Origin: a virus
IMG/VR virus record: IMGVR_UViG_3300014059_000004
Reading direction: 5' to 3' (one strand)
Length of the DNA: 64,000 nucleotides
Shown: positions 43,592 through 56,644 of the stretch, piece after piece
How positions within the stretch are numbered: position 1 is the stretch's first letter
Layout: each line of letters opens with the position of its first letter
Translations under genes and position numbers: made by a program
Notes under the pieces: model-generated
Told to the model about the DNA's origin: nothing
Seen by the model: only the letters and a program-made list of their open reading frames with translations
Database searches by the model: none

Positions 43592-43743
43592 GGTTCAAAG
43601 CAGTAATCAGGGAACACTAGCACTTTTGTGTCTCTAGCCCGCAGGACGATTCCGTACCATCGCGAACCAGCTTGGTCCTTCCAGGACTCTGCATCGCCGA
43701 GAAAAATAAGCAGATCGCCGACGTCAAAGGAAACATCATTCAT
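43576..43743 (-). CDS. array paralog (short, 55 aa, found by eye in a gap of the ORF track)
   Basis: MNDVSFDVGDLL...VLVFPDYCFEP. Confidence 0.4.
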   Translation of the reverse strand: MNDVSFDVGDLLIFLGDAESWKDQAGSRWYGIVLRARDTKVLVFPDYCFEPCHPN

Positions 43744-43919
43744 GCTAGCACCATGATATCATAGGCGTAGTATGTTAGCACCCCGCCGTTTGGCAGCATC
43801 ACTCGAACGATCAGATCACCCCAAGCCCCAACGCGAAGGCCGATGCAAACCATGATGGTGTCATGAGGATGATATCCAATCTTCGCCTGAACTAGATCGC
43901 CGATCTTAATCTTCTTCAC
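43740..43919 (-). CDS. array paralog (GTG start, 59 aa)
   Basis: VKKIKIGDLV...VMLPNGGVLTYYAYDIMVLA; ATGA coupling downstream. Confidence 0.4.
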   Translation of the reverse strand: MKKIKIGDLVQAKIGYHPHDTIMVCIGLRVGAWGDLIVRVMLPNGGVLTYYAYDIMVLA

Positions 43920-44128
43920 GGGAGACTCAAGTCGTGGTTGTACACGTAAATCAAGTGACCAGATGGAAGAATCACCAACGCGTAATTACCACCATGCACT
44001 CGATAGTCGTTCAAGTAAACAGCAAGTCGCTCGTTAGAGCCAAAGTTGCGAATCTTTGGATGATCAGAATCAAGCTCGCATATGATGACATTGTCTCTGT
44101 TGATCTTCACCAAAGTACCGGTTTTCAT
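43916..44128 (-). CDS. array paralog
   Basis: MKTGTLV. Confidence 0.55.
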   Translation of the reverse strand: MKTGTLVKINRDNVIICELDSDHPKIRNFGSNERLAVYLNDYRVHGGNYALVILPSGHLIYVYNHDLSLP

Positions 44129-44304
44129 AGCTTCCTCAAGTTGCTCGCGTAGTACACTGCAATCTGTCCGTTGGGAAACATGACGCGAACCAGGCAGTCG
44201 CCGTGAAGGCTGTCAAGCGTTCCCATACACACCATGGGGCTCCGAGTCTGAGACAATCGGTTTTCAAATCGCAGCAGATCACCAGTCTTGAATGATTCTT
44301 TCAT
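44125..44304 (-). CDS. array paralog (59 aa, manual)
   Basis: MKESFKTGDLL...VMFPNGQIAVYYASNLRKL. Confidence 0.45.
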   Translation of the reverse strand: MKESFKTGDLLRFENRLSQTRSPMVCMGTLDSLHGDCLVRVMFPNGQIAVYYASNLRKL

Positions 44305-44522
44305 GCGGGCACCAAGTCAGCTGCAACGATGCGTGTCAACTTCCCTGACGGAAGCAGGACCCACTTGTAATCCTCGCCGGCGATCGTCTCGCAACCTACA
44401 CACATGCAGATGAAGTTGGGTTTAACTTTGAAGAACGCAAATTTCTCAAATCCCATGGGTATCATGGGTGCTTCAATGATCGTTGTGTGCCGCGTGGTAA
44501 GCAGATCTCCCGGCAGCATCAT
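44301..44522 (-). CDS. array paralog
   Basis: MMLPGDLL. Confidence 0.55.
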   Translation of the reverse strand: MMLPGDLLTTRHTTIIEAPMIPMGFEKFAFFKVKPNFICMCVGCETIAGEDYKWVLLPSGKLTRIVAADLVPA

Positions 44523-44692
44523 AGCAGCTCTCTCAGCTCGCTTGCGTATCGCCAGGCAACTTGCCCAGACGAGCAGACAACGCAGGCAATGCTAGGGTGA
44601 ACATGGTCCGTGCCCACGTAGATCAACACTGACCTCTTTGGTATTACGTGGTTATCGTAGATCCAATAGACCAGATCCCCGGATTTCATCAT
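44519..44692 (-). CDS. array paralog (57 aa, manual)
   Basis: MMKSGDLVYW...SSGQVAWRYASELREL. Confidence 0.45.
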   Translation of the reverse strand: MMKSGDLVYWIYDNHVIPKRSVLIYVGTDHVHPSIACVVCSSGQVAWRYASELRELL

Positions 44693-44856
44693 TGCTCCGC
44701 GTGCTTCAGATCACAGACGTAGAACCAATCAATCTGCCCATTCGGTGCTATAACGTAAGCGAATGCAGAATCCGGATCACAACGACACAAGTAGATGTAC
44801 ACGGTGTGCTGGGCGGCCCAGTTAACCAAGTCACCGCTACGAAATGAATCGCTCAC
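44689..44856 (-). CDS. array paralog (GTG start, manual)
   Basis: VSDSFRSGDLV...IAPNGQIDWFYVCDLKHAEQ. Confidence 0.4.
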   Translation of the reverse strand: MSDSFRSGDLVNWAAQHTVYIYLCRCDPDSAFAYVIAPNGQIDWFYVCDLKHAEQ

Positions 44857-45101
44857 TTGACAACCTTGAACTGGTGCGGGAAAGAGACCCAGATCTCACC
44901 GCGGAACAATACGACAGCGAGGTTACAATCATCCCACGTGACCGTGCCAAGAAAAGTGCCAGCTGCTCGGCATTCTTCATCTGTGGGCTTGAAATCTTTA
45001 TACACGAGCCGCGCGCCGTCCTCATGCAGTGAAATGGTCGTCACGTACGTACTTCCATGCGATTGTAGAATCACCATGTCACCCGGAAGTGTCACTGCCA
45101 T
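44853..45101 (-). CDS. array paralog
   Basis: MAVTLPGDMV. Confidence 0.5.
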   Translation of the reverse strand: MAVTLPGDMVILQSHGSTYVTTISLHEDGARLVYKDFKPTDEECRAAGTFLGTVTWDDCNLAVVLFRGEIWVSFPHQFKVVK

Positions 45102-45141
45102 CTAACAATTGTAACCCATTTTGTGGCACCAGTGCACAGCG

Positions 45142-45360
45142 TTACAAAGGCCTTAGTCTTGATGGATGAACTTCTACCAAGACACCAGACGGAAGCAAGA
45201 TAAGAACCAAGCTTCCGTTGCCACGACCGCTAATACCAACGTACACGAAAGGTCCAGAACCGGGAACTTCGAAGCCGTGAAGACCATATTCATAGGGTGC
45301 TTTCAACGTGAGGACGTACAGATCTCTCGAGTCGCTGCAGACCAGATCGCCGATCTTCAT
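45142..45360 (-). CDS. array paralog (trimmed)
   Basis: MKIGDLVC. Confidence 0.5.
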   Translation of the reverse strand: MKIGDLVCSDSRDLYVLTLKAPYEYGLHGFEVPGSGPFVYVGISGRGNGSLVLILLPSGVLVEVHPSRLRPL

Positions 45361-45518
45361 AGCAGCTCTAGTGCACCAACGTAGTATCTGTTGACGCGTC
45401 CGCTGAACAGCAAGACCCAAGCCCAAGTCGCTCCTGACTTGAGCTGACCAAACCCTATGATGATGCACGCTTCTGGCAAATAATTTTTTCGTGGGACAAC
45501 CAAGTCACCAACTTTCAT
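45357..45518 (-). CDS. array paralog (53 aa, manual)
   Basis: MKVGDLVVPRKN...LLFSGRVNRYYVGALELL. Confidence 0.45.
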   Translation of the reverse strand: MKVGDLVVPRKNYLPEACIIIGFGQLKSGATWAWVLLFSGRVNRYYVGALELL

Positions 45519-45530
45519 AGCGACACCTCA

Positions 45531-45758
45531 TCAGATGAAAAACACGTTGTCGACGTACGTAACAACCAGCTCACCAGTTTCGCGCATCACCATGATGCGA
45601 TTGCGATGAAACTGGGTAGGCTCGATAATGAAGACACCGACGCACAGCAACACTTCATCGTCAACCAAGCACTGACCCAGGTAATAACCAGATATCGGAT
45701 TGCAGGTTGATATGAACTTGCTCTTCGAGCAGACAAGATCTCCAGGTTCGATATTCAT
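45531..45758 (-). CDS. array paralog
   Basis: MNIEPGDLV. Confidence 0.55.
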   Translation of the reverse strand: MNIEPGDLVCSKSKFISTCNPISGYYLGQCLVDDEVLLCVGVFIIEPTQFHRNRIMVMRETGELVVTYVDNVFFI

Positions 45759-46015
45759 TCAACCCACTGCAGCTCTTTAACGGAGCCGGCGTACGTAGAG
45801 ATAACACGACCGTCTGGTAGCAAGATCCACACGTACTGCAAACCGTCAACTTTGAAGCTGTTTACGTATACAGCAACGCAGAAGTTTACGGCGAAATCAT
45901 CTGCAATCTTTGATTGCCTCACTTTGAGGAAGTGATCTGCCTCGTGCGGATTCATTGAAATTCTCTTGAACGTGGGAACGACCAGAACACCAGCTTTCAT
46001 AGTGGACTCCTCCAA
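45755..46015 (-). CDS. array paralog
   Basis: MKAGVLVV. Confidence 0.5.
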   Translation of the reverse strand: MEESTMKAGVLVVPTFKRISMNPHEADHFLKVRQSKIADDFAVNFCVAVYVNSFKVDGLQYVWILLPDGRVISTYAGSVKELQWVE

Positions 46016-46185
46016 AGCGGTTGTACGTCGCTTTCGTAGAACTTTTTGATGTTCCCGTTCGACCCCATAAGAATTGCGACCTTTGCCACTTCGTACATCA
46101 CACCGGCCAAGTAAACATAGATCTCACGGTCCCATGCAAAAGAAACGGTGACAAGATCACCTGTGACAAAATTATGTTTCATCAA
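45997..46185 (-). CDS. array paralog
   Basis: NFVTGDLV. Confidence 0.55.
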   Translation of the reverse strand: MMKHNFVTGDLVTVSFAWDREIYVYLAGVMYEVAKVAILMGSNGNIKKFYESDVQPLWRSPL

Positions 46186-46402
46186 TCTTCAGATCGCTCC
46201 TTGCTACCGTTGCTACTTGCCCATGCGATGTCAGAACCAAGTACGCCCTGATGTTGCCAACGAACATCTGCGCAAGGTAGATGAAGACCACATGCCCACG
46301 CTCTGGATCCCATGCCCGGACTGAATTCCATTTGCCGTGACGATCTAGCTCAATGTACGTTGTGTACACTGCGCTCAGCAAGTCACCAGCACGAATCGTC
46401 AT
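46172..46402 (-). CDS. array paralog
   Basis: MTIRAGDLL. Confidence 0.55.
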   Translation of the reverse strand: MTIRAGDLLSAVYTTYIELDRHGKWNSVRAWDPERGHVVFIYLAQMFVGNIRAYLVLTSHGQVATVARSDLKIDET

Positions 46403-46572
46403 TGTATCTCCAGAAGCTCATCAACCCAACGCCAGCGAACATCGCCGGTCGGGCGGATGATAAGAGCAACGTGCTCGGTGTCAGACGCAGTGCAGATGAA
46501 CACGTTGATGCCCGGAACTTCATCATGGATCCAATAGACCAGATCGCCTGACTTAAACTGTTCACGCTTCAT
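46399..46572 (-). CDS. array paralog (57 aa, manual)
   Basis: MKREQFKSGDLV...RPTGDVRWRWVDELLEIQ. Confidence 0.45.
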   Translation of the reverse strand: MKREQFKSGDLVYWIHDEVPGINVFICTASDTEHVALIIRPTGDVRWRWVDELLEIQ

Positions 46573-46732
46573 GCAGCAGTTCCAGCTCGTTCAACCAATA
46601 CTCTACAGCACAACCTTCTACATTTATAACCAGAGCAAAGTGGTAAAAGTTCCCAGCTGGGACATACGAACTCACGTATATAAGCGGTTCGTTGCGATTA
46701 AATGCCCAACACACCAGATCACCAGCTTTCAT
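46562..46732 (-). CDS. array paralog (56 aa, manual)
   Basis: MKAGDLVCWAFN...YWLNELELL. Confidence 0.45.
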   Translation of the reverse strand: MKAGDLVCWAFNRNEPLIYVSSYVPAGNFYHFALVINVEGCAVEYWLNELELLHEA

Positions 46733-46772
46733 GCTAGCACAAAATCTCCGTCAGTGATGAGCAGATCTCCAG

Positions 46773-46955
46773 TCACCATGCTCTCTTCATGTCATCGTAA
46801 TCAAACCGTGAAACAGTGCCATCAGGACACATGAACCAACCGTGAGTCCAATTGTTAGAGCTGCACAGGAAGATGAACATGCTCTTGTGATTCCACTTGG
46901 AAATTTTCGGTATGAAGTACGGACAGTATGCCGCATCGCCAGAATAAAATTTCAT
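46773..46955 (-). CDS. array paralog
   Basis: MKFYSGDAA. Confidence 0.5.
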   Translation of the reverse strand: MKFYSGDAAYCPYFIPKISKWNHKSMFIFLCSSNNWTHGWFMCPDGTVSRFDYDDMKRAW

Positions 46956-47167
46956 GTTACGAGCCTCAATTCCGCAGTGTGAGCCGCTGCAAACGTTCCA
47001 TCGGGAAGAAGGACGATGGTGAGGTAATCAAGCGGCCCTGGGCAAGTCCCGCAGCAGATGAAGGGACCAATACCTTCGAAGTGACGAACGTCACCGTTAT
47101 TTGGATCAGCTGCATTCCACACGACAATGTCTTTGAAGCGAGAGGTTAGAAGGTCACCAGTTCTCAT
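46952..47167 (-). CDS. array paralog
   Basis: MRTGDLL. Confidence 0.55.
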   Translation of the reverse strand: MRTGDLLTSRFKDIVVWNAADPNNGDVRHFEGIGPFICCGTCPGPLDYLTIVLLPDGTFAAAHTAELRLVT

Positions 47168-47370
47168 TTGATCACCTTAAGCTCTGAAGCTCTCGTGTAC
47201 ATGATCTTGCCGTTTGGAAGAAGGATGATTGTGAGTTGACCGCCGATGTCACCAAGGCAGATGAACGGTCCACGGCCAGTGAGCATGCGGCCGCCCTGAC
47301 ACAGCTTATCATCCATCTCAAAGACGAACGTGTCCTTCCACGCGCCACAGACAAGATCACCGGTCTTCAT
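47164..47370 (-). CDS. array paralog
   Basis: MKTGDLVC. Confidence 0.55.
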   Translation of the reverse strand: MKTGDLVCGAWKDTFVFEMDDKLCQGGRMLTGRGPFICLGDIGGQLTIILLPNGKIMYTRASELKVIK

Positions 47371-47576
47371 CGTGACACCGCTTCGAATTCATCTGTTATG
47401 ATGTGAACGACACGGCCATCAGGTGACAATGCCAGCCCACGTGCGGGTGACAGCAGCAAGAAGTAACCGAACGAGCGCCTGTACCACTGGCTACCGTGGG
47501 TTGACATGATCGTGGTCGTGAAAGTATCTCCCATCGGTAGAAGAAGATCACCGTGGATAAATGGAAAGCGGCTCAT
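47367..47576 (-). CDS. array paralog
   Basis: FIHGDLLL. Confidence 0.5.
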   Translation of the reverse strand: MSRFPFIHGDLLLPMGDTFTTTIMSTHGSQWYRRSFGYFLLLSPARGLALSPDGRVVHIITDEFEAVSR

Positions 47577-47788
47577 CGGGAGATAACCTTCACAAAATCA
47601 TCAATCTTGATTATCACGATCCGTTCTCCAAGAAGCCCATACACGTACTCTTGATCTCGTACCGAGTAACCAATCACGAGGAGAGGGTCAACTATCTCCG
47701 TACCCCACGTGCCCCTACGAACATCGTAAACAGGGGCGTACTTCCCTTCGTAATTCCCGGCCAGAAGATCACCGATCACTGGAGACAA
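47573..47788 (-). CDS. array paralog
   Basis: MSPVIGDLL. Confidence 0.55.
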   Translation of the reverse strand: MSPVIGDLLAGNYEGKYAPVYDVRRGTWGTEIVDPLLVIGYSVRDQEYVYGLLGERIVIIKIDDFVKVISR

Positions 47789-48020
47789 CCTTCAAATCAG
47801 AAGCTAGAACACGGGAAACGCGGCCAGAAGGAAACATCACCCAGCACAGCGAGACACCCCGGACGTTGCAGACACCAAGGTAGATGAGCGGAAAATCACC
47901 AGCTACATCGACCAGGCGACCCGAGAACTTGCCAGGCTGCACTTCAGCATACTCAACCACGTAGGTGGCGATGAAGCCTTCTTTGCGCCGGATTCTAAGA
48001 ACGTCTCCAAGCGTCATCAT
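47769..48020 (-). CDS. array paralog
   Basis: MMTLGDVL. Confidence 0.5.
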   Translation of the reverse strand: MMTLGDVLRIRRKEGFIATYVVEYAEVQPGKFSGRLVDVAGDFPLIYLGVCNVRGVSLCWVMFPSGRVSRVLASDLKVVSSDR

Positions 48021-48220
48021 AGGGGTGACACCTCTCCAGAAGAAACCACGAGGATCTTATCACCAGCAAGGACGTACACGTAATGTTCAGCCCAAATTTC
48101 ATGGTAACCCAAGAAGACCATGGGACCCAAGCGCTCCACGAGCCACTTCTCATGCGATGGGCCAGCATACTGGAACGTTGGATACTTCGACCTAAGAAGG
48201 TCACCGCAGTTAAAAGCCAT
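48017..48220 (-). CDS. array paralog (trimmed)
   Basis: MAFNCGDLL. Confidence 0.5.
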   Translation of the reverse strand: MAFNCGDLLRSKYPTFQYAGPSHEKWLVERLGPMVFLGYHEIWAEHYVYVLAGDKILVVSSGEVSPL

Positions 48221-48447
48221 CAGAGTGGTCGCCATCGGTGGGGGTAAGTGATCAAAATGCGGGACCGGTGAAGAACAATGGTGCAATCGACATCATCGAT
48301 CTTTAGGGTGCCAACGGCGACCCCGGCCGCAGCATCGTCTTCACCAGTGGGGTAAAACATGCGGCAGCGAAATGGTGCGGTGCTGACAACTGTCGGGAAG
48401 ACATCGTCGAAAGAATCCAACCGAACCAAATCACCGGGGGAGAACAT
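48220..48447 (-). CDS. array paralog
   Basis: MFSPGDLV. Confidence 0.55.
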   Translation of the reverse strand: MFSPGDLVRLDSFDDVFPTVVSTAPFRCRMFYPTGEDDAAAGVAVGTLKIDDVDCTIVLHRSRILITYPHRWRPL

Positions 48448-48450
48448 GCC

Positions 48451-48588
48451 TCACCTCGTTCTTCCAAAGGTAGATGAAGCACCCGTGATTGTGAGCTGAT
48501 CGTACATGCGGGAGACAAGGATGAAGATGTACCCCGCTGGGTAATCCAACACGGGGCGGGAGAGAACCAGCAAGTCTCCAGCTCTCAT
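48451..48588 (-). CDS. array paralog (45 aa, manual, possibly truncated)
   Basis: MRAGDLLVLSRP. Confidence 0.35.
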   Translation of the reverse strand: MRAGDLLVLSRPVLDYPAGYIFILVSRMYDQLTITGASSTFGRTR

Positions 48589-48592
48589 CTGA

Positions 48593-48898
48593 TCACCACG
48601 AAGTCACTATCATAGATGGCAACGAGCTCTCCGCAATAGAGAACGTAGCTGTAGTTCGGATTCCATGGATGCCGTGAGACGTAGGTGACCATGAAGTTGC
48701 GAGGCATATGCACACGTCCGGTTCGCCACGCAGGTTACAGATGAACGTGTACAGATGATTTTCACAGCGTCCATCCCCAGCACCCCACTTCGCGAAGTAG
48801 CTATTTTCATCGAATCCTGCGAGCTTTGAGAAACGCAACCCTTTTGCGCTCTGCGTTGTCATCAGAAGATCACCTGGAGACCACGTGTAAGTGATCAA
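48593..48898 (-). CDS. array paralog
   Basis: TWSPGDLL. Confidence 0.5.
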   Translation of the reverse strand: MITYTWSPGDLLMTTQSAKGLRFSKLAGFDENSYFAKWGAGDGRCENHLYTFICNLRGEPDVCICLATSWSPTSHGIHGIRTTATFSIAESSLPSMIVTSW

Positions 48899-49131
48899 AC
48901 TTTCACCATGTTGATGACTCTCGTCATTATGACTTCGTTCGCCGAGCTCAAGTACGTGCCGATGCTTCCGAAGTCGCCGTTGACGTTGACTGGGCCGACG
49001 TACATGTACATCGCGTTCGAACGAAGCAACTTATCGCCGAACAGGATGTCTTTTCCATCGCGGGTCATGACTATGACGCTGCCGTACGTGCAACCGCTTT
49101 CAGATTCTAGCTTGAACAACTCACCAATCAT
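48895..49131 (-). CDS. array paralog (trimmed)
   Basis: MIGELF; ATGA coupling. Confidence 0.45.
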   Translation of the reverse strand: MIGELFKLESESGCTYGSVIVMTRDGKDILFGDKLLRSNAMYMYVGPVNVNGDFGSIGTYLSSANEVIMTRVINMVKV

Positions 49132-49391
49132 AGGCTCACCAACGTTCCGTACTTGCAGTAGATAATCTTCCCATCGGGTGTCAAGTAAGCAGCACGCACG
49201 GTGCAGTTGGTCGCCCGTGCTTCTCCAACGTATACGTATGGGCCCTGGGTGACAAGCTGCTCGCCCAAAAGACACCATACGTACTCAACTTGAGTCCTCA
49301 ACGAGTCTGTTACTTTGGTGTAACGGTGAAGCGCCCAAGTCCAGTGACCCAAGATGCTAGGATCAGCAATGAACAGATCGCCTGTTTTCAT
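49128..49391 (-). CDS. array paralog (trimmed)
   Basis: MKTGDLF. Confidence 0.5.
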   Translation of the reverse strand: MKTGDLFIADPSILGHWTWALHRYTKVTDSLRTQVEYVWCLLGEQLVTQGPYVYVGEARATNCTVRAAYLTPDGKIIYCKYGTLVSL

Positions 49392-49603
49392 AGGTGTTCG
49401 AACGCGTGAGACGCTGCATACCTGATCTGACCATCGCGGCGCAAGTACATCGCAAGATTTTGACCCCACTTCGTTATGAAGATGAAGACTTCGCCCGTAT
49501 TAACAAAATCTGAAGTGAAGAAATGACCGTTGATGTCGACGTACGACATCGTCTTTGACCACTTGCACTTCACCAAGTCACCAGTCTTGAACTCTGTGTT
49601 CAT
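49388..49603 (-). CDS. array paralog
   Basis: EFKTGDLV. Confidence 0.55.
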   Translation of the reverse strand: MNTEFKTGDLVKCKWSKTMSYVDINGHFFTSDFVNTGEVFIFITKWGQNLAMYLRRDGQIRYAASHAFEHL

Positions 49604-49830
49604 AGTGGTTCGAAGTTTCCTTTGAGTGATATTACAATGGAACTGGTAACGTTGACAAAGTAGTAGCTATAGCTCTTGTCATAGTCACCCAAGTACATTA
49701 GAAGTGTGGCTCTATCAACCATTTGTCCCATCGTACCAAGACCATGACTTGTTTTCACGAACGTGATAGCAAAGTCAAATGGCAACGATCGTCTCAAGCA
49801 AACGAGCTGTCCGACAGTCTGCGCCTTCAT
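49600..49830 (-). CDS. array paralog
   Basis: MKAQTVGQLV. Confidence 0.5.
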   Translation of the reverse strand: MKAQTVGQLVCLRRSLPFDFAITFVKTSHGLGTMGQMVDRATLLMYLGDYDKSYSYYFVNVTSSIVISLKGNFEPL

Positions 49831-49873
49831 GGTTCAATCTTTACGAAGGCATATTCGCGACACGCACGAACCT

Positions 49874-50062
49874 TCAAATCAACGGTTGACAGAAAGTAAG
49901 AAAGACGCCCATTTTAACGTGTGGAACTTTGCTCAAGTATACGTGCAGTTGAAACGCAGACGCAATTGTACCGTTCCAGACCCAAAAGCCCCTATCGTCG
50001 TATTGATACACGTAGACCCCATGCGAACCCTTGGCTACCACAAGATCGCCGCTCTTCATCAC
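49874..50062 (-). CDS. array paralog
   Basis: MMKSGDLVV. Confidence 0.55.
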   Translation of the reverse strand: MMKSGDLVVAKGSHGVYVYQYDDRGFWVWNGTIASAFQLHVYLSKVPHVKMGVFLTFCQPLI

Positions 50063-50277
50063 CGCACCGGTGTTACGTCAAAGATATCGCAAACAATTAT
50101 TTTCCCCGTCGAGCAGTGCAAGAAGTACGTCAACGTGTCGCTGTTCACAACACCCACGTAGATCAGAAGATCTCTTACTGGAATTCGTTCTCCATCGTTA
50201 AACCAGCCCTCATCTTCAACCCAAATTTGAGCGCGAACATGCTCACTGCGTGCTCTAGCAAGATCGCCCGCGCGCAT
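50059..50277 (-). CDS. array paralog
   Basis: MRAGDLA. Confidence 0.5.
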   Translation of the reverse strand: MRAGDLARARSEHVRAQIWVEDEGWFNDGERIPVRDLLIYVGVVNSDTLTYFLHCSTGKIIVCDIFDVTPVR

Positions 50278-50513
50278 AATATCACCTGCATCCCGTCAAC
50301 TTCGACAAAGACTATTTGGCACCGCGGGATGCAGAAGAAGCTACCGATCACTGAATCGTCTGCTTTTCCCAAGTACATGCACTGTTCATCGGAATACAAC
50401 ATGTATGACTTCAACCCTTTCGATGCGTCGTGCATCCACCACTTGCCCCCTTCTGCATAGAACGTTCTGGGTCCATAGCGTGATCGTGTTCTCACCAAAT
50501 CACCGGTGCACAT
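50175..50513 (-). CDS. array paralog (trimmed; 3' third overlaps neighbour in another frame)
   Basis: MCTGDLV. Confidence 0.4.
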   Translation of the reverse strand: MCTGDLVRTRSRYGPRTFYAEGGKWWMHDASKGLKSYMLYSDEQCMYLGKADDSVIGSFFCIPRCQIVFVEVDGMQVILCARAILLEHAVSMFALKFGLKMRAGLTMENEFQ

Positions 50514-50520
50514 GCCTTGA

Positions 50521-50649
50521 TCAGACGACATGAAACTCATGAACAAGACCGCGGCCGCTGTGAAAACGTGACGCCTTTTGCGCTGGATCATCACCAATGA
50601 AGTACAAAAAGTTGCTGTACGTTGACGTTAGCAGATCGCCGACTTTCAT
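50521..50649 (-). CDS. array paralog, short (42 aa, manual)
   Basis: MKVGDLLTSTYSNFLYFIGDD. Confidence 0.35.
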   Translation of the reverse strand: MKVGDLLTSTYSNFLYFIGDDPAQKASRFHSGRGLVHEFHVV

Positions 50650-50867
50650 AGTGTTTCAAGCTCGTGCATCGCAGCCCAGCCAACCTCACCCCATGGGAAC
50701 ATGAATATAAAACCTGGCGTTCCACCAACGTCTGTAAACGTACCCAAGTACAATAGGAAGAAGTATCGACCGCTCAACATCCGTGCGCCGGTCAAAATAC
50801 CATCGTTGAATCGACAGTACATGATGTCGTCGTACTTCGACCTAAGCAGATCACCAGGGCTAAACAT
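50646..50867 (-). CDS. array paralog (trimmed)
   Basis: MFSPGDLL. Confidence 0.5.
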   Translation of the reverse strand: MFSPGDLLRSKYDDIMYCRFNDGILTGARMLSGRYFFLLYLGTFTDVGGTPGFIFMFPWGEVGWAAMHELETL

Positions 50868-51082
50868 GCTCTCAAGCTCTCCATCGGAATCCGGACAACA
50901 GAACCATCCGGCTTCATGATCCACCCGCAGGGGACAACAGTTCCCTTCGAGGTGCCCACGAGCTCGCGGGACAACCAGATGCAAGGTCCAGATGGCCACT
51001 TCCCAGAAGCTCTAGGGCGGTTGTAGACATCTACTTCAACCCAGTACATCCCCACAATGCGGCACAAGTCACCGGTCAGCAT
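50792..51082 (-). CDS. array paralog (trimmed; tail overlaps next member)
   Basis: MLTGDLC. Confidence 0.45.
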   Translation of the reverse strand: MLTGDLCRIVGMYWVEVDVYNRPRASGKWPSGPCIWLSRELVGTSKGTVVPCGWIMKPDGSVVRIPMESLRACLALVICLGRSTTTSCTVDSTMVF

Positions 51083-51450
51083 CTCTCTCCCCTTATGGTA
51101 AACTACAGCACCGCAGAAGTGCACTGCTGGGGGAAGTGCTTCTGACTTGACCCCTTCATCCCCGAATGGCTCTTTGGAGGGCTTCCGCCGCCCGAGTCAC
51201 AGATGCCCTCAGGTGGCAATTCCTCACGGGAGTACTGCTGTGCAGTTTCCTTGGGAACCCCGGCGAAATTATCGTCTATGAGGATGTGGGTCATCGCGGT
51301 GCAGCTCTGTGAGGTTGTCGGTTGTCACGTAGCAGAGAAGACAGATGGGAAGACACTTTCCTCACAGCGACGCACGAGGGGGACTTTTCTCGTGGGAATT
51401 CCTCACAGCGATCACGATTTCAGGGTAGCTGGGAATGGCACTAACGGGTT

Positions 51451-51473
51451 CATCGCGGTGATCAATTTCTCAC
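51451..51473. repeat. left copy of 23-bp perfect inverted repeat (CATCGCGGTGATCAATTTCTCAC)
   Basis: Exact reverse complement found at 51744..51766. Confidence 0.7.
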
Positions 51474-51715
51474 CCAATTTTTTCAGAGTGCTCGAAGAGG
51501 TAGAGGATGTGACTCTCTGTATCTGGACCACTGAGTACCCATACCTCTGGTTGACCGATCTTGCTGGAGACCAAGAATGTCCACGGTGATGTCGATAGGA
51601 GGATGTAGATGCTCGGAGCGCTTGTGTCGTACCAGACGTCTCCCGGCTCGAGCTGGACCGCCGCTCGATGGATACCATTTTCATCACCGCGCATCGCAGC
51701 GCTACTTGCCTTCAT
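51470..51715 (-). CDS. possible divergent array member lying between the 23-bp inverted repeats
   Basis: VQLEPGDVWYD; weak. Confidence 0.3.
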   Translation of the reverse strand: MKASSAAMRGDENGIHRAAVQLEPGDVWYDTSAPSIYILLSTSPWTFLVSSKIGQPEVWVLSGPDTESHILYLFEHSEKIG

Positions 51716-51743
51716 CTTGGTTCTTATGGGTTGTGTGTCTCAC

Positions 51744-51766
51744 GTGAGAAATTGATCACCGCGATG
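51744..51766. repeat. right copy of 23-bp perfect inverted repeat
   Basis: GTGAGAAATTGATCACCGCGATG = reverse complement of 51451..51473; adjacent 10-bp palindrome CTCACGTGAG. Confidence 0.7.
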
Positions 51767-51896
51767 AATTTGGCTCTCGCAAAAGTCTCCGGGCAGCTCT
51801 TGACCGCCGCTCGAGGTCCATTCTTGAGCCTCATATTTCACTTGGAGTACTTCACCATGTAAGTCAACCGTGCCTCAGTCGTCACGCGGAACTCCT

Positions 51897-52100
51897 TCAG
51901 CCCCCATCGTGGTAGAAGATGATCGTGATGTTCTTGGGTACCGTGCCAGGGGTGATCGACCACGAGGCTTCCGGCTCGCTCTTGTAGATGAGAAGATCTG
52001 GGAGCGCGGTCTTGAAGACGATGATGTCTCCCGGCACCATGCGTGCCACAGGTACTTGTGGCAGAAGATCGATGAACGGCCAGCTGCCCCGCCCCTTCAT
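51897..52100 (-). CDS. array paralog (trimmed)
   Basis: VARMVPGDIIV. Confidence 0.45.
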   Translation of the reverse strand: MKGRGSWPFIDLLPQVPVARMVPGDIIVFKTALPDLLIYKSEPEASWSITPGTVPKNITIIFYHDGG

Positions 52101-52330
52101 GGGTTCACCCTGAGAATGTCGGGTGTGAGCGGCGTGCGCTCGTAGGCCCTCGTCGAGCGCCACAAATTCAGCGTGCTCAATTCAAGAGACCAGAAGTAGA
52201 CAAATTCACCAGTTACGTGGACTGAGACTACCAAGTCGTAGCGCGGGCGGTTGTCGCTGACAGGGTCACCTTCCCAAACGAAGACATCTCCAGGTCTTAC
52301 TTCTCCGTGCTTCAAGTTCTTCAGGATCAT
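52097..52330 (-). CDS. array paralog
   Basis: EVRPGDVFV. Confidence 0.5.
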   Translation of the reverse strand: MILKNLKHGEVRPGDVFVWEGDPVSDNRPRYDLVVSVHVTGEFVYFWSLELSTLNLWRSTRAYERTPLTPDILRVNP

Positions 52331-52578
52331 GATACCTTGACAACAACATCTTTGAATGTTGAACCTCGCATCGCGGACCAGAAGTGACCATTGTGAGCTC
52401 GCCAGAGGTGCACCTCAACGACGCCCCATTCATTGATGACGTTTGCTATGACCAGCTCCAAGTAAGGCCCAACATCTTCGTGCATCTCTGAATCGCAAGA
52501 CGTCCAGATGACCAGGTCACCCGGTTGAAGAGCGTCGATCTCCGCTTCTGTGAGGTACTTCGGATTCATCAGCTTCAT
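52327..52578 (-). CDS. array paralog
   Basis: ALQPGDLVI. Confidence 0.5.
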   Translation of the reverse strand: MKLMNPKYLTEAEIDALQPGDLVIWTSCDSEMHEDVGPYLELVIANVINEWGVVEVHLWRAHNGHFWSAMRGSTFKDVVVKVS

Positions 52579-52905
52579 TCAGTTAACTCGAACGTACTCA
52601 TTGATGTCACCTTTATTCCACTCCCTAGACACGTGCTTCCCGGAGAGCCTACCGTACGTAGAAGAATAGATGATAAACGTCACAGTGCCACGTTGAGAAC
52701 CAGAACCGTCCCAGGGGCGTGCAAAGTTGCAGATCACAAGACCCATCGTATGATACTGCACCACCCCGGGTGCAGCGGTCGAGACCGGCCCAGAGAAGAA
52801 AAGAAGATCGCCCGGGACCAGGTCTTTTGCAACGTCGCGCCAATTCATCAGCCCGGCCTTTTTCAGCCGAGCTCGATCAGTTTCGTTGATAATGGTGGCA
52901 AACAT
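52579..52905 (-). CDS. array paralog
   Basis: DLVPGDLLF. Confidence 0.5.
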   Translation of the reverse strand: MFATIINETDRARLKKAGLMNWRDVAKDLVPGDLLFFSGPVSTAAPGVVQYHTMGLVICNFARPWDGSGSQRGTVTFIIYSSTYGRLSGKHVSREWNKGDINEYVRVN

Positions 52906-52915: not shown

Positions 52916-53857
52916 TCAAAAAGGTACTCCCAGTAACAAATTTAACAGGAGCGAGAAATCTGAATCATTCCTGTCAGCGTTCAAGTTCACAGTGAACGGT
53001 GTCATCCCGTCGGGGGATATGCTGATCATTGACATTGTGACGATATCGTGACCCGCGCCGTGCATCTCATTCCGGACGGTTGCAACGACGAGCAAGTACT
53101 CGTTGAGCATCGAGCCCGGGACAGAAAAGAGCAAGTCGCCAGGCTCCAGCGTTCCGAACGTCCACCTTTTGCGGGCCACTGGTAACTTCACCTTCCGCGG
53201 TCGACCACGCTTCCGCTTAGCAGAGACCTCTGCGCGCTTCTCCTTGGCAGCACGCTCTGCAGCGATGACATCTTTCGGGCGGTTCTTGGAACCAGGCGGG
53301 CGACCGCGCTTCCCCTTGCGGACAGGCTTGGGCTCACCCTCCGGCGGCAGCGGTCGAACTCGCGGTCGGCCACGCTTCTTCTTGCCGATGGTCTCCTTGG
53401 CGATGGCCAGGCAGTACACGTCACCCTTCTTCGGGCCGGTGATGTAGTTGCCCAGGGCATGCTGCTTCAGGTCTTCGTTCCAGAGACCCACCACACCAGT
53501 CTCGTCATCGATGCTCTCCACCGTGTACGTCAGGGTATCGAGCCACGGACGCGCTGCCAGGACAGAAGCATAGCGCTCGATGACGATCTTGTCACCGATG
53601 TTAAAGAGCGGGAGGGGAGCACCGTCCACCACCACAAGCGCAGGCTTCAGGTGAGAGATGTCTGGCTTCCGGGCATTGCGGTCCGCCCACGCAGCGTCCG
53701 GATCGCGGCCAGCAAGACCCCAGTCTTCATCAGCGTCCGCAGGGAGAGCCGGCGGGGGAAGAGCAGATGCCGAAGCAACGAGTGCATTGACCTGGTCGGT
53801 GAGAGGGTTCGTCTCGTCCATAGGTTTATTGTACCACGTTTCTTCGAGGGTTTGCAC
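52916..53857 (-). CDS. two-domain array-family protein with three AT-hook motifs in the linker
   Basis: LFNIGDKIVI... and TLEPGDLLF... domains; KRGRPRV, GKRGRPPGSKNRPK, RKRGRPRKV (GRP cores). Confidence 0.55.
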   Translation of the reverse strand: MQTLEETWYNKPMDETNPLTDQVNALVASASALPPPALPADADEDWGLAGRDPDAAWADRNARKPDISHLKPALVVVDGAPLPLFNIGDKIVIERYASVLAARPWLDTLTYTVESIDDETGVVGLWNEDLKQHALGNYITGPKKGDVYCLAIAKETIGKKKRGRPRVRPLPPEGEPKPVRKGKRGRPPGSKNRPKDVIAAERAAKEKRAEVSAKRKRGRPRKVKLPVARKRWTFGTLEPGDLLFSVPGSMLNEYLLVVATVRNEMHGAGHDIVTMSMISISPDGMTPFTVNLNADRNDSDFSLLLNLLLGVPF

Positions 53858-53929: not shown

Positions 53930-54154
53930 CTAAAAGGCGGTCAATGAATCGTACGTGTCATCATGGGTCGGGTAGCTCTTCCAGACCTTAAAAGTTTCCA
54001 AGCTCATGAACCCAATGTCGAGCAATTCACCATCGTCGTGCTTCATCGTCTTCCAGATCACCATGACCATCGCCTTGCGACCGCCGCCGGGTCTCCAGCC
54101 TTCCTTGTCCCACAGGAGCAATGTCCCCGGTTGAAGATCTTTTACGTACACCAT
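53930..54154 (-). CDS. array paralog (QPGTLL variant)
   Basis: MVYVKDLQPGTLLLW. Confidence 0.5.
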   Translation of the reverse strand: MVYVKDLQPGTLLLWDKEGWRPGGGRKAMVMVIWKTMKHDDGELLDIGFMSLETFKVWKSYPTHDDTYDSLTAF

Positions 54155-54375
54155 AATAGCATCGTTGCGTAGCAGTACTGCTCGTCGACTTCACTGACAG
54201 TATCCCAGAATCTCTGCTCTTCCGCGCAGAAGAATCTGACCCTCCTCCAATAAACGTTGCTCTCGTGAGCCCAGATGCCGATCACCATGACTGTCACTGG
54301 CGTCGTCAACCTTGGAACGATTGTGCGATCCCAGCGCAATAGAGTTCCTGGTTGAATGTCTTGAACTTTGACCAT
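54142..54375 (-). CDS. array paralog (QPGTLL variant)
   Basis: MVKVQDIQPGTLLRW. Confidence 0.5.
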   Translation of the reverse strand: MVKVQDIQPGTLLRWDRTIVPRLTTPVTVMVIGIWAHESNVYWRRVRFFCAEEQRFWDTVSEVDEQYCYATMLLWCT

Positions 54376-54489
54376 GTGAAGAGTTCTTTTAGCGCTACGC
54401 AGGCACGTTTAACAGTATTCAACAATTGTATTACGTTCGAACATGAGCTGGGTTGTGTATAAGAGAACGAATACGTTGAATAAGAAAAT

Positions 54490-54711
54490 TTATATTGGGC
54501 TCACGATCACGTGCCCTGCGTTCTCGCAGGGATGATGTTCACCCCAAGGCTTTGTGCACCATTTATATTCCGGGTCGACATTGTTGAACGTTTCAACTTT
54601 GCCATCATGGATTGTGACCATCGTGCTACCCTTTGTGCTGACGAACACGTGGAGCGTTCGAACCCAAGTGACGATCGATCCGGGAAGTATGTTCTTTGTC
54701 TTTATTGTCAT
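54490..54711 (-). CDS. array paralog variant
   Basis: NILPGSIVTW. Confidence 0.45.
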   Translation of the reverse strand: MTIKTKNILPGSIVTWVRTLHVFVSTKGSTMVTIHDGKVETFNNVDPEYKWCTKPWGEHHPCENAGHVIVSPI

Positions 54712-54986
54712 TGTGCGAGGATGAAGGGGGTGACTGAGCTGCCGAGCTCACGCTTGAACTTCTCAATGTCACCGCACACGGGCCACAGGTGGTTCTCTTG
54801 GACCTCGATCCAGTTGAGCCGGCTCATGGGGGAGTGCCAGGAATGCTCAAGCATCGTGACTTTGTACCAGAAGTCGTCCTTCAACGTGGGATTGGGAACT
54901 TTACCGATGCACAAGACAACGTACAGCGAAGAAGCCCACTGGATGAGGGCACCAGTTTTGACATCAGTTGTGGGGATGAATAGCAT
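54708..54986 (-). CDS. array paralog variant
   Basis: DVKTGALIQW. Confidence 0.45.
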   Translation of the reverse strand: MLFIPTTDVKTGALIQWASSLYVVLCIGKVPNPTLKDDFWYKVTMLEHSWHSPMSRLNWIEVQENHLWPVCGDIEKFKRELGSSVTPFILAQ

Positions 54987-55144: not shown

Positions 55145-55870
55145 TTGCCCGAGAGATCACGGGTCACTCATGGTTTCATTGTAACCGGTTTAGTGTATAT
55201 TATACACATGGTGATCGAGAAGTTTGTTGAAGCAAAAGTTCAACATCTACGCATGAAGTGTGATCAATGCAACGTTGAATTTGTTCGCAACAAAAACGTA
55301 AGAATGCTCATGTCGCGGCCTCGACAATATTGTTCATCTGGCTGCGCTTCTGGTGCTCTACGCAAAGGCGGTATTGCTGATGCTTCGCGAAAGAAGACAT
55401 GCACTGAGAAGTATGGATCATCTTACTTTATTATCACACCTCAAATTCTCGCGCAGAACGCAGAGAGATCTCACACGCCTGAAGCAGAAGCCCGCCGGCG
55501 GGCCGCCGTCAGAGAATCTTTGAAGAGCACAACAGTTCAGCTAAGACGTGGGCTGTTTTTGACACGATCTAAAGCTGAGATCAAGTTCTTTGATGCCCTG
55601 GCCGGGGCCTTGGGTTATAAACTAGAGACGCAAGTATACATCAACGGTTGGTGGATCGATGCTTGGTCACCTGTTCATGATGTTTGGCTTCAATTCGACG
55701 GCGTATACTGGCATTCAAAACCGGGCGCTGTTCTTCGTGATCGAGCTCAAGATCTGTGGTTTGCAGATCAAGGAAAAAGATTGATCAGAATCACTGATGT
55801 AGAAGCACGAAACGCCAGGTCCGTTGAAGACCTGGCGTTGAAGATTACTAATCCAGTGGGTAGTTCATAA
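55145..55870 (+). CDS. endonuclease-like protein: N-terminal Cys cluster plus C-terminal DUF559/Vsr-like PD-(D/E)xK-type domain
   Basis: CDQCNVEF...CSSGC; C-term WIDAWSPVHDVWLQFDGVYWH resembles E-x-D-G-x-x-W-H restriction-endonuclease-like motif. Confidence 0.45.
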   Translation: MPERSRVTHGFIVTGLVYIIHMVIEKFVEAKVQHLRMKCDQCNVEFVRNKNVRMLMSRPRQYCSSGCASGALRKGGIADASRKKTCTEKYGSSYFIITPQILAQNAERSHTPEAEARRRAAVRESLKSTTVQLRRGLFLTRSKAEIKFFDALAGALGYKLETQVYINGWWIDAWSPVHDVWLQFDGVYWHSKPGAVLRDRAQDLWFADQGKRLIRITDVEARNARSVEDLALKITNPVGSS

Positions 55871-56644
55871 CTCAAAGACGTTGATCTGACCCATCTCGTG
55901 CAGTCCTTCCTTATTGTAGCCAAGGACGTAACCCCGACCGGAACATCCAAACCTATTCTTTGTCACCTCGAAGATGCGCTGCCCGTAGGAAGGCGACTTC
56001 TCCTGCTGGTCGATGTAAAGCTTTCCTCGGACGTCGATGGCGTGGAGGATGCCGTTCTTCCCAGAGAACTCGCCGTCCTTGTTCACCTGGCCGATGAAGA
56101 CCACGCACCCGTAAGTCGCCTTGGCCCACTCGGTCAGCATCTCGGTTGCACGGAGCGGCGTGGTCCCGTTCGTCCCGTTGGAGTACTTCCCGTCGTCCAG
56201 AGTCTGCAAGGAGTCCTGGAGGATGAAGACCTGCTTGCCCTTGTGAACCTTGCGCAGTTCATCAGCATGGGCCAGGAGATCCGGCACCATGATGTCCTGC
56301 CCGCAGACGAAGCCGTGCTTCAGGTTGAGGCGCTCGGTGACCATGCGGACCTGGTGCAGGGATTCCTCGCCCGTGTTGTACAGGCAGATGTGACCGGACT
56401 TCGTGATGGAATCTGCAACCTGCAGCAGCATCGTGGTCTTCCCAGCACCCGGCGTACCCGTCAGCATCATCACCGAGGAAGGCACGAATCCCTCACCGCC
56501 CACCGCATCGTCGAACCAGGTGACGCCCGTCTTCACTCGCCGGCGCAGGGCATCCGGGACCTTGACGTCCATGATGTTCGTCCCACGCTTCAGGCCTTTG
56601 ATCCCAACATTGATTGACATTGACCGGGCCATTGTATACCTCAA
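55865..56644 (-). CDS. RecA-superfamily ATPase (single-domain RadA/Sak4/KaiC-like)
   Basis: Walker A LTGTPGAGKTTMLLQ, Walker B VFILQDSLQ, 259 aa. Confidence 0.55.
   Translation of the reverse strand: MRYTMARSMSINVGIKGLKRGTNIMDVKVPDALRRRVKTGVTWFDDAVGGEGFVPSSVMMLTGTPGAGKTTMLLQVADSITKSGHICLYNTGEESLHQVRMVTERLNLKHGFVCGQDIMVPDLLAHADELRKVHKGKQVFILQDSLQTLDDGKYSNGTNGTTPLRATEMLTEWAKATYGCVVFIGQVNKDGEFSGKNGILHAIDVRGKLYIDQQEKSPSYGQRIFEVTKNRFGCSGRGYVLGYNKEGLHEMGQINVFEL

What the first reader, a model, noticed from the sequence alone, without database searches (positions are those of the whole stretch)
52916..53857. Array-family fusion protein with two family domains joined by three AT-hooks
One array member (313 aa) carries two copies of the family domain (LFNIGDKIVI... 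and TLEPGDLLF...) separated by a basic linker. The linker contains three canonical AT-hook cores (KRGRPRV, GKRGRPPGSKNRPK, RKRGRPRKV). AT-hooks bind the minor groove of AT-rich DNA. This hints that at least some family members act on DNA or the nucleoid, and it offers an experimental handle on the family's function.
Basis: partly seen in the sequence, partly recalled or inferred. Interest (0 to 1): 0.6.

Follow-up and report, generated by a model that had tools for sequence, protein, structure and literature searches.

The report
Phage AT-hook protein fused to neighbour
A conserved, uncharacterised protein of a group of huge phages combines a small beta-barrel with HMGA-type AT-hook DNA-binding motifs; in this phage a one-base frame change has joined it to the small gene next door, so the fusion says little about what the neighbouring gene array does.

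Summary
The ORF (52916-53857, minus strand, 313 aa) and its three RGRP cores are real and not chance. The protein is not an array member with two family domains.

- **Residues 1-222** belong to a metagenome-only family: 361 clusters at 50% identity with E<=1e-10, typically about 200 aa. It has an acidic N-terminus, a confidently predicted SH3/Tudor-like beta-barrel and a basic tail.
- **The hooks.** Hook 2 (RGRPxGSKNRPK) shares its nine-residue core, in the family consensus, with the second AT-hook of human HMGA1. It is invariant, and it persists at 30% identity. Hook 1 is restricted to closer relatives. Hook 3 is specific to this lineage.
- **The barrel** is single-copy and shows no detectable homology to the array family (hhalign 1-3%).
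- **Residues 223-313** do look like an array gene. In a 96.5%-identical contig this segment is a separate 91-aa gene that overlaps the AT-hook gene by GTGA. One extra base in the window puts the two in frame. More distant relatives are all unfused. The fused part evolves faster and carries in-frame indels in some variants.

Minor-groove binding of AT-rich DNA is a reasonable but untested inference. It is a new variant of a known kind, of moderate interest.

The parts
52916..53857 (-). Whole fused ORF, 313 aa from GTG (301 aa from the ATG at 53819-53821); stop codon at 52916-52918.
   Evidence: Fused homologs P0001/P0002/P0003 come from independent assemblies.
53675..53857 (-). Acidic, poorly conserved N-terminal region (aa 1-61, net charge -9).
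   Evidence: family mean charge -4.9; pLDDT 54-80 with short helices. Alignment variable here.
53390..53674 (-). Conserved SH3/Tudor-like beta-barrel (aa 62-156), the defining globular domain of the family; single copy in the window.
53357..53383 (-). AT-hook 1, KKKRGRPRV (aa 159-167).
   Evidence: K[RK]KRGRP[RK]K.P is nearly invariant in 116 homologs. Absent in the most distant members L010-L013.
53273..53317 (-). AT-hook 2, KGKRGRPPGSKNRPK (aa 181-195), the extended HMGA1-hook-2 type.
   Evidence: R184 G185 R186 P187 G189 N192 are invariant in 121 sequences. Retained at 30-36% identity. The profile aligns it to PDB 2ezd HMG-I(Y).
53207..53275 (-). Predicted basic amphipathic helix (aa 195-217) between hooks 2 and 3.
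   Evidence: AF2 helix 195-217, pLDDT 78-88. The V-I-x-A-E-K-x-A-K pattern is conserved.
53192..53218 (-). AT-hook 3, KRKRGRPRK (aa 214-222). Lineage-specific, and the C-terminal end of the protein in the unfused allele.
   Evidence: In 116 homologs these columns are K/R/A-rich or gapped, with P220 in only 2. The L005 protein ends ...KRKRGRPRG*. This is the only stretch of the window protein that the Pfam AT_hook model reports (13.5 bits).
53186..53197 (-). Fusion junction CGG AAG GTG AAG (R221 K222 V223 K224). The GTG at 53189-53191 is the start codon of the separate downstream gene in L005.
   Evidence: Window, L031 and L030 read CGCGGAAGGTGAAG. L005 reads CGCGGGGGTGAAG, giving a TGA stop that overlaps a GTG start.
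52919..53191 (-). Fused C-terminal domain (aa 223-313), corresponding to the first downstream array gene.
55865..56644 (-). Context: RadA/RecA-like ATPase core gene, the syntenic upstream neighbour of the AT-hook gene.
   Evidence: Pfam KaiC/AAA_25/DnaB_C. PDB RadA 5lkm E 5e-19. Immediately upstream of the AT-hook gene in L003, L004 and L007 and within 1-2.5 kb upstream in L001, L002, L005, L012 and L031.
34095..52905 (-). Context: downstream array of about 55 small xGD[LIV] genes, filling the interval between the AT-hook gene and the MVP-like gene (31335-34079).
53930..54986 (-). Context: four small L/I-x-PG-x genes upstream of the AT-hook gene, of the same sub-type as the fused C-domain.
   Evidence: The L003-array HMM scores the first three at 11-13.6 bits and the fourth (54708-54986) only 4.5 bits. 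The homolog of 53930-54154 is fused onto the AT-hook ORF in variants P0269/P0274.

Best explanation
**Shown.** The gene encodes a member of a conserved, uncharacterised family found on large phage-like contigs. The family has an acidic N-terminus, an SH3/Tudor-like beta-barrel of about 95 residues, and a strongly basic, disordered tail carrying HMGA-type AT-hooks. In this sub-lineage the tail has gained a third hook. A one-base frame change in the GTGA stop/start overlap has joined the gene to the first downstream small gene of the array, adding a second small SH3-like domain.

**Inferred.** The RGRP cores insert into the minor groove of short AT-rich tracts, with hook 2 as the main anchor. 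The barrel is a protein-interaction module. The protein would then act as a DNA-tethered adaptor or architectural factor, in the manner of HMGA or of Myxococcus CarD.

**Speculative.** The syntenic RadA-like ATPase is the most obvious candidate partner.

**Probable.** The fusion itself looks like a tolerated accident of gene adjacency rather than the design of the family.
For: **Family and architecture**
- 177 word-indexed hits. In the exhaustive search, 890, 361 and 135 representatives at 50% identity reach E<=1e-3, 1e-10 and 1e-30. Nearly all are 150-260 aa.
- Charge is bipolar across the family: N-terminus -4.9, tail +20.8 on average.

**Hooks**
- Hooks 1 and 2 are invariant or nearly so.
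- Hook 2 alone survives at 30-36% identity.
- Pfam AT_hook matches 101 of 121 members at E<=1.
- The profile aligns to HMG-I(Y) hook 2 in PDB 2ezd.
- The linker is predicted disordered, pLDDT 53-65.

**Fusion**
- L005 has separate 210-aa and 91-aa genes in a GTGA overlap. The window differs there by one extra base and one substitution.
- The fused junction recurs in L031 (96% nt identity) and L030 (90%), from other samples.
- Outgroups L002, L003 and L010-L013 are unfused, with PGD-type small genes directly downstream.

**Constraint**
- Window against L005: 10 synonymous and 1 non-synonymous difference in 208 codons of the AT-hook part, against 10 and 6 in 91 codons of the C-domain.
- C-part identity is 74-99%, N-part 97-100%.
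- Variants carry in-frame indels in the C-domain.

**Synteny**
- The order is AAA_5 ATPase, RadA-like ATPase, AT-hook gene, small genes, MVP-like gene.
Against: - No experiment exists on any member of the family.
- The window protein scores below the Pfam AT_hook gathering threshold (13.5 against 17.4 bits).
- The phage DNA in the window (about 50% GC) shows no excess or deficit of AT tracts against dinucleotide shuffles: 72 against 86.6 +/- 14. No target sites are therefore indicated.
- The RadA-like neighbour was not detected in 6 of 14 loci.
- The direction of change is ambiguous inside the sub-lineage. The 90%-identical L030 is fused while the 96.5%-identical L005 is not. The fused state may therefore be the older one there and be maintained.
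Confidence: 0.7

Rival explanations
1. The protein is a bona fide array-family member built from two paralogous family domains joined by an AT-hook linker, so the array family as a whole acts on DNA or the nucleoid.
For: - Both begin with a GD-containing strand.
- The AT-hook gene sits at the head of PGD-gene arrays across deep divergence.
- Array genes have fused to it on both sides in different variants.
Against: - hhalign of the N-domain against three array profiles gives 1-3%.
- Array HMMs do not hit it.
- The N-domain is single-copy, is about 95 aa against 45-100 aa for the array genes, and evolves slowly (10 synonymous to 1 non-synonymous). Array members evolve fast.
- The hooks belong to the tail of a free-standing protein of about 200 aa in hundreds of relatives.
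- The fusion depends on one base and is absent in L005 and in all outgroups.
Confidence: 0.08
2. The fused ORF is an assembly or sequencing frameshift artefact, and the real genes are separate as in L005.
For: The two states differ by a single-base indel next to a G-run.
Against: - The same in-frame junction CGCGGAAGGTGAAG occurs in contigs from at least two other samples, at 96% and 90% nucleotide identity.
- The 27-member cluster of P0001 lists 10 full-length members of 286-426 aa. All seven whose sequences were read (P0001, P0263, P0264, P0268, P0269, P0274; P0261 and P0270) carry the fused junction.
- The junction differs from L005 by a substitution as well as the indel.
Confidence: 0.03
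3. The basic RGRP tail does not serve sequence-context-specific binding to double-stranded DNA. It might bind RNA, as extended AT-hooks can. It might also act as a general polyanion or charge-neutralising tail, for example on packaged or replicating phage DNA, with the barrel doing the specific work.
For: - The tail carries a very high positive charge (+12 to +45) in every family member.
- No AT-tract signal is present in the phage DNA.
- bL19 and EF-P/KOW-type barrels, the top fold matches, are RNA-associated.
Against: A generic basic tail would not keep R-G-R-P-x-G-[SVA]-K-N-R invariant over 121 sequences and down to 30% identity. That exact module is the DNA-contacting element of HMGA1 hook 2 (function from established knowledge of PDB 2ezd/2eze).
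Confidence: 0.15
4. The fusion is adaptive. Tethering an array-family barrel to DNA through the hooks gives a new function, and the fused state is maintained by selection in this sub-lineage.
For: - The fused junction is shared by contigs down to 90% nucleotide identity.
- The C-domain still shows more synonymous than non-synonymous change, 10 to 6.
- An independent upstream fusion exists.
- Hook 3 arose in the same lineage.
Against: - An unfused near-identical allele exists.
- Variants have 15- and 48-residue in-frame deletions that remove core strands of the C-domain.
- The C-part diverges 5-8 times faster than the N-part.
- The internal GTG start is retained, so the free product could still be made.
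Confidence: 0.2

Closest known systems
Eukaryotic HMGA1/HMGA2 (HMG-I/Y) AT-hook proteins; Pfam PF02178 AT_hook
   Same: - Multiple RGRP cores flanked by K/R lie in a disordered basic segment.
- The family consensus of hook 2 shares the nine-residue module RGRPKGSKN with HMGA1 hook 2 (PDB 2ezd). The window protein itself reads RGRPPGSKN.
- Charge is bipolar, with an acidic region plus basic hooks.
   Different: - HMGA proteins are about 100 aa, wholly disordered and have an acidic C-terminal tail.
- This family has a folded beta-barrel of 95 aa and an acidic N-terminus, and it is encoded by phages.
- The window protein scores below the Pfam gathering threshold.
- The similarity is limited to the short motif, so common descent cannot be claimed.
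Myxococcus xanthus CarD (CarD_CdnL_TRCF N-terminal domain plus HMGA-like C-terminal domain)
   Same: - It is a prokaryotic protein with an N-terminal Tudor-like five-stranded beta module that binds a protein partner (RNAP beta).
- It also has an acidic segment and four RGRP AT-hooks that bind DNA (PMC4374960, PMC2919716).
- This is the closest architectural analogue.
   Different: - None of the 121 family members matches Pfam PF02559.
- The acidic region is N-terminal here.
- No CarG-like partner is known.
- The resemblance is one of design, not membership.
Bacterial xenogeneic silencers with AT-hook-like motifs (H-NS, Lsr2 and their phage- or plasmid-encoded homologs)
   Same: They recognise the minor groove of AT-rich DNA through a short Q/RGR-type loop. 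Mobile elements encode their own versions (PMC8476142, PMC10066036; mechanism from established knowledge).
   Different: In those proteins the motif sits inside a folded DNA-binding domain and is paired with an oligomerisation domain. No such domains are detected here, and the hooks are of the canonical disordered RGRP type.
The window's own array of small xGD[LIV] proteins
   Same: The C-terminal 91 residues match it in motif order, predicted fold, position and strand. A free-standing ortholog exists.
   Different: The N-terminal barrel and the hooks do not belong to it.

Membership tests
AT-hook motif (Pfam PF02178) | Core G-R-P, usually R-G-R-P, flanked by K/R on both sides. | tested here: met
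   Three cores at aa 162-165, 184-187 and 217-220, all with K/R flanks. None of 100,000 shuffles gave three.
AT-hook motif (Pfam PF02178) | Score at or above the Pfam gathering threshold (17.4 bits). | tested here: not met
   The window protein scores 13.5 bits, E 0.069, with only hook 3 reported. Across the family, 101 of 121 members match at E<=1, best 3.1e-4. The model has 13 positions, so scores are inherently low.
AT-hook motif (Pfam PF02178) | Motif conserved among homologs and located in an unstructured segment. | tested here: met
   Hooks 1 and 2 are invariant or nearly so in 116-121 sequences. pLDDT is 53-65 over aa 156-190.
AT-hook motif (Pfam PF02178) | Binds the minor groove of AT-rich DNA. 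| not testable with these tools
   Needs EMSA, footprinting or NMR.
HMGA proteins | Small (about 100 aa), wholly disordered, three hooks, acidic C-terminal tail. | tested here: not met
   A folded 95-aa barrel at pLDDT 93-98. The acidic part is N-terminal. Most family members have two hooks.
HMGA proteins | Hook 2 extended module RGRPKGSKNK. | tested here: met
   The family consensus kkRGRPkGsKNRpk aligns to 2ezd residues 3-19.
CarD (Myxococcus type) | N-terminal CarD_CdnL_TRCF domain (PF02559). | tested here: not met
   No PF02559 hit in any of the 121 members at E<=1. The fold is Tudor-like only in the generic sense.
CarD (Myxococcus type) | HMGA-like region with an acidic segment followed by RGRP repeats. 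| tested here: inconclusive
   RGRP repeats are present and an acidic segment is present, but the barrel separates them.
Window array family (small xGD[LIV] proteins), C-terminal domain aa 223-313 | Free-standing gene of 45-100 aa in the same-strand tandem array, with PGD strand, hydrophobic strand, PDG turn and terminal L-x-x-L in that order. | tested here: met
   P0121 is a separate 91-aa gene in L005. Motif order is shown in alignment A3.
Window array family (small xGD[LIV] proteins), C-terminal domain aa 223-313 | Significant profile match to array members. | tested here: inconclusive
   hhalign gives 75.6% against the L003 array but 7.7% against the window's distal array. HMM score is 9.8 bits against 9.2 for the best reversed control. 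The family is too divergent for strong scores.
Window array family (small xGD[LIV] proteins), N-terminal domain aa 62-156 | Profile match to array members. | tested here: not met
   hhalign 1.1-2.7% over 8-16 columns. No HMM hit. tblastn E 7.2.

The most novel reading that the evidence does not exclude
The AT-hook/barrel protein may be the DNA-anchoring head of the array system. Under this reading the fast-evolving small SH3-like proteins encoded downstream are a diversified set of host-factor binders. They would work at DNA together with the AT-hook protein, and possibly with the RadA-like ATPase and the vault-like protein of the same conserved block. Recurrent in-frame fusions on both sides would then reflect a physical partnership. 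This would define a new phage module that recruits variable adaptor domains to AT-rich DNA.
Probability: 0.1. Interest if true: 0.7.

Novelty: new variant of a known kind. Interest (0 to 1): 0.4.

Why it matters
AT-hooks are well understood in eukaryotic chromatin proteins and in a few bacterial regulators such as CarD. I found no described phage family built on them. Two full-text searches gave nothing relevant. There is no Pfam or PHROG family, and no match in 50,697 deposited phage genomes.

This family has hundreds of members, an invariant HMGA1-type hook and a new beta-barrel domain. It also holds a fixed place in a conserved gene block of very large uncultured phages. That makes it a tractable entry point, through a short peptide and a 95-residue domain, into how these phages handle DNA.

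The specific fusion is mainly a caution. Adjacent overlapping phage genes can be joined or split by one base, so domain co-occurrence in a single genome is weak evidence of shared function.

Tried and rejected
1. **AT-tract depletion.** W>=8 runs looked three-fold depleted against mononucleotide shuffles (41 against 117). The effect disappears with dinucleotide-preserving shuffles (72 against 86.6 +/- 14), so I dropped it.
2. **Junction allele counts.** A scan of JGI metagenome contigs for the junction pattern returned 8 unrelated chance matches and no relative.
3. **HMM from 46 window array members.** It carries almost no information (all scores below 8 bits). The array of relative L003 gave a more useful profile.
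4. **Deposited phage genomes.** Megablast and tblastn of the locus and protein against deposited phages found nothing. PHROGs gave no hits for the protein or seven neighbours.
5. **Other structure and sequence searches.** Foldseek against viral predicted structures gave nothing at E<=1e-3. A hook-2 peptide alone found nothing in PDB sequences.
6. **Host assignment.** GTDB genomes hold only three family members, on MAG contigs labelled Bdellovibrionota, Verrucomicrobiota and 'bacterium'. These are probably mis-binned phage contigs.
7. **Homologs of the C-domain.** A search with the C-domain alone found only P0121 and P0122. No deep alignment was possible, and its fold model is of medium confidence only.

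Full report
**The observation.** The minus strand carries an open frame from 53857 to 52916 (GTG start, 313 aa), exactly as reported. An in-frame ATG at codon 13 gives the 301-aa form that most gene calls in relatives use. The three cores are KKKRGRPRV (aa 159-167), KGKRGRPPGSKNRPK (181-195) and KRKRGRPRK (214-222). They lie in an 80-residue segment of net charge +25. None of 100,000 composition-preserving shuffles of the protein or of the linker gave three RGRP motifs. No other ORF in the window has such a cluster. Pfam's 13-position AT_hook model reports only hook 3, at 13.5 bits, below its 17.4-bit threshold.

**The surroundings.** The window is phage-like:
- a GroEL (phrog_5725, 1.4e-143), an exonuclease and AAA ATPases;
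- one tRNA-Leu;
- a 914-aa protein with major-vault-protein shoulder and repeat domains. Its only relatives among 50,697 deposited phage genomes are three uncultured phages of 462-735 kb.

From 34.1 to 55.0 kb the minus strand is packed with about 60 small genes of 45-100 aa. Each starts with an xGD[LIV] strand. The ORF in question sits inside this run.

**What residues 1-222 are.** A search of 5.8 billion proteins returned 177 relatives. An exhaustive profile search of 1.84 billion representatives at 50% identity found 890, 361 and 135 proteins at E<=1e-3, 1e-10 and 1e-30. Nearly all are 150-260 aa. All come from metagenome assemblies or MAGs, and none carries a name beyond 'hypothetical protein'.

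The relatives share one architecture:
- a variable acidic N-terminus (mean charge -4.9);
- a conserved block of about 95 residues (query aa 62-156; invariant P65, E94, T108, G121, L125, N137);
- a basic tail (mean charge +20.8) that ends near query residue 220.

**The hooks are conserved.** In 116 homologs of 35-53% identity, hook 1 reads K[RK]KRGRP[RK]K.P with R162, G163, R164 and P165 in 115-116 sequences. Hook 2 reads K[KR][KG]RGRPxG[SVA]KNRPK with R184, G185, R186, P187, G189 and N192 invariant. More distant members from viral contigs (30-36% identity, L010-L013) have lost hook 1 but keep hook 2.

The family profile aligns hook 2 to the HMG-I(Y) peptide of PDB 2ezd (TPKRPRGRPKGSKNKGA), with RGRPKGSKN identical to the family consensus. 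From established knowledge, that peptide is the second, high-affinity AT-hook of HMGA1, solved in complex with AT-rich DNA. Pfam AT_hook matches 101 of 121 members at E<=1.

Hook 3 is different. In other members those columns are simply K/R/A-rich or gapped. It is therefore a recent addition in this lineage.

**The N-terminal barrel is not the array domain.**
- Profile-profile comparison of the barrel alignment with three array alignments (46 window members, 27 members from relative L003, and the window's proximal group) gives 1.1-2.7% probability. It covers only the 8-16 columns around the GD strand.
- Array HMMs do not hit it.
- Its best tblastn match to an array gene, MFNIGDLVKL at 39804-39863, has E=7.2.
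- The barrel is single-copy in the window. It is under strong purifying selection: 10 synonymous and 1 non-synonymous difference against L005 over 208 codons.

**Residues 223-313 are a fused neighbour.** A search with the C-terminal 90 residues found a free-standing 91-aa protein at 93% identity (P0121). On its contig (L005, 96.5% nucleotide identity to the window over the ORF) the AT-hook gene ends ...KRKRGRPRG-stop after 210 codons. The next gene starts at a GTG inside a GTGA overlap.

The window reads CGCGGAAGGTGAAG where L005 reads CGCGGGGGTGAAG. One extra base, plus one substitution, puts the two frames in register. Hook 3 is therefore the C-terminal end of the AT-hook protein, not a designed linker.

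The same fused junction is present in contigs from two other samples at 96% (L031) and 90% (L030) nucleotide identity. The listing of the 27-member cluster shows ten full-length members of 286-426 aa, and every one I read is fused. The fusion is therefore not an assembly error.

All more distant relatives are unfused, and a PGD-type small gene follows the AT-hook gene directly. In L002 an 80-aa gene overlaps it by four bases. L003 has an array of at least 27 genes. L010-L013 have several each.

Inside the sub-lineage the direction of change is unclear, because the more divergent L030 is fused and the closer L005 is not. The two states are one indel apart.

**Membership of the C-domain in the array family.**
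- It is supported by position.
- It shares the order of four motifs with array members: PGDLL, YLLVV, SPDG and a terminal L-rich helix.
- It reaches 75.6% hhalign probability against the L003 array.
- The HMM score is only marginal, 9.8 bits against 9.2 for the best reversed control.

**The fused part is less constrained.**
- Across fused variants the AT-hook part is 97-100% identical to the window and the C-part 74-99%.
- Against L005 the C-part has 10 synonymous and 6 non-synonymous differences in 91 codons.
- P0003 and P0264 carry in-frame deletions of about 48 and 15 residues that remove core strands, and P0268 has an insertion. P0263 and P0269 have lost the terminal stop.
- P0269 and P0274 also read through from the upstream array gene, with two stops replaced by W and Y, giving an array-AThook-array protein.

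Gene boundaries here are plainly plastic.

**Synteny.** Across loci the order is an AAA_5 ATPase on the opposite strand, a RecA-fold ATPase of about 255 aa, the AT-hook gene, small PGD genes, and the MVP-like gene. The ATPase matches the RadA core (PDB 5lkm, E 5e-19). It lies upstream of the AT-hook gene in 8 of 14 loci and was not detected in the others. The number of small genes between the AT-hook gene and the MVP-like gene ranges from 3 (L002) to about 55 (window).

**Mechanism.**
- *Shown:* a conserved barrel-plus-hooks family, and a frame-change fusion to the downstream array gene.
- *Inferred from the established behaviour of RGRP hooks:* the tail binds the minor groove of AT-rich DNA, and hook 2 is the principal anchor because it alone is universal.
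- *Inferred from fold class and architecture:* the barrel is a protein-interaction module. The protein would then be a DNA-tethered adaptor, like HMGA or like Myxococcus CarD. In CarD a Tudor-like N-terminal module binds RNAP beta, and an acidic-plus-RGRP C-terminal region binds DNA (PMC4374960, PMC2919716).
- *Speculative:* the partner is the neighbouring RadA-like ATPase.

I found no indication of target sites. AT tracts in the window are not enriched or depleted against dinucleotide shuffles.

**Comparison with known families and novelty.** The protein works like an HMGA or CarD-type factor but is a member of neither. It has a folded domain and an N-terminal acidic part, unlike HMGA. It lacks the CarD_CdnL_TRCF domain.

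I found no description of this family. Literature searches for AT-hook together with bacteriophage or jumbo phage returned nothing relevant. I rate it a new variant of a known kind.

The fusion that drew attention is a lineage-restricted accident of adjacency. It gives at best weak evidence about the array's function. The conserved family behind it is the more useful finding.

Noticed in passing
window 34095-52905 and 53930-54986 (minus strand): About 60 tandem small genes (45-100 aa) begin with an xGD[LIV] strand. They fill the slot between the AT-hook gene and the MVP-like gene. The same slot holds 3 genes in L002, several in L010-L013 and at least 27 in L003. A medium-confidence AF2 model suggests an SH3/KOW/Tudor-like barrel.
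   Followed up: partly
window 31335-34079 (minus strand): A 914-aa protein carries major-vault-protein shoulder, Vault repeat and Band_7 domains (MVP_shoulder 2e-30). It is conserved at 43-70% identity in L001/2/10/11/13. Its only relatives among deposited phages are LR756500/1/3, uncultured phages of 462-735 kb.
   Followed up: partly
proteins P0269 and P0274 (relatives; corresponds to window 53858-53929 spacer): In some variants the upstream array gene reads straight into the AT-hook ORF. The two stops of the 72-nt spacer are replaced by W and Y. The result is a 412-426-aa array-AThook-array protein.
   Followed up: partly
window 55062-55870: A tRNA-Leu(TAA) on the minus strand (55062-55144) sits next to a 241-aa plus-strand ORF (55145-55870) with no Pfam or PHROG match. 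Both lie between the RadA-like ATPase gene and the small genes. The ORF is also present in L005, but neither is at this position in L001-L004, which suggests an insertion.
   Followed up: no
window 55865-56644 (minus strand): A 259-aa RecA-fold ATPase matches the RadA core (PDB 5lkm, E 5e-19) and lacks RadA's zinc-finger and Lon-like domains. It lies upstream of the AT-hook gene in 8 of 14 loci.
   Followed up: partly
L014 540-1298, L015 1030-1560, L016 7965-8342 (IMG/VR contigs): Unrelated proteins on other viral contigs carry two or three RGRPxGSKNKPK-type hooks without the barrel domain. HMGA-type hooks therefore occur in other viral lineages too.
   Followed up: no
window 53103-53447 (plus strand): The antisense ORF (114 aa) also reads RGRPRF twice, because the hook codons are near-palindromic. 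It is a mirror of the real gene, not a second AT-hook protein.
   Followed up: yes
window 53877-53896 (minus strand): A terminator-like hairpin, GAGGGTGGAAAACCACTCTC, is followed by the AT-rich tract AATTTAATTC just upstream of the AT-hook gene start. Terminator-like sites are not enriched over shuffles in this region.
   Followed up: no
window 21731-23356 (plus strand): Phage-encoded GroEL-type chaperonin (phrog_5725, 1.4e-143).
   Followed up: no
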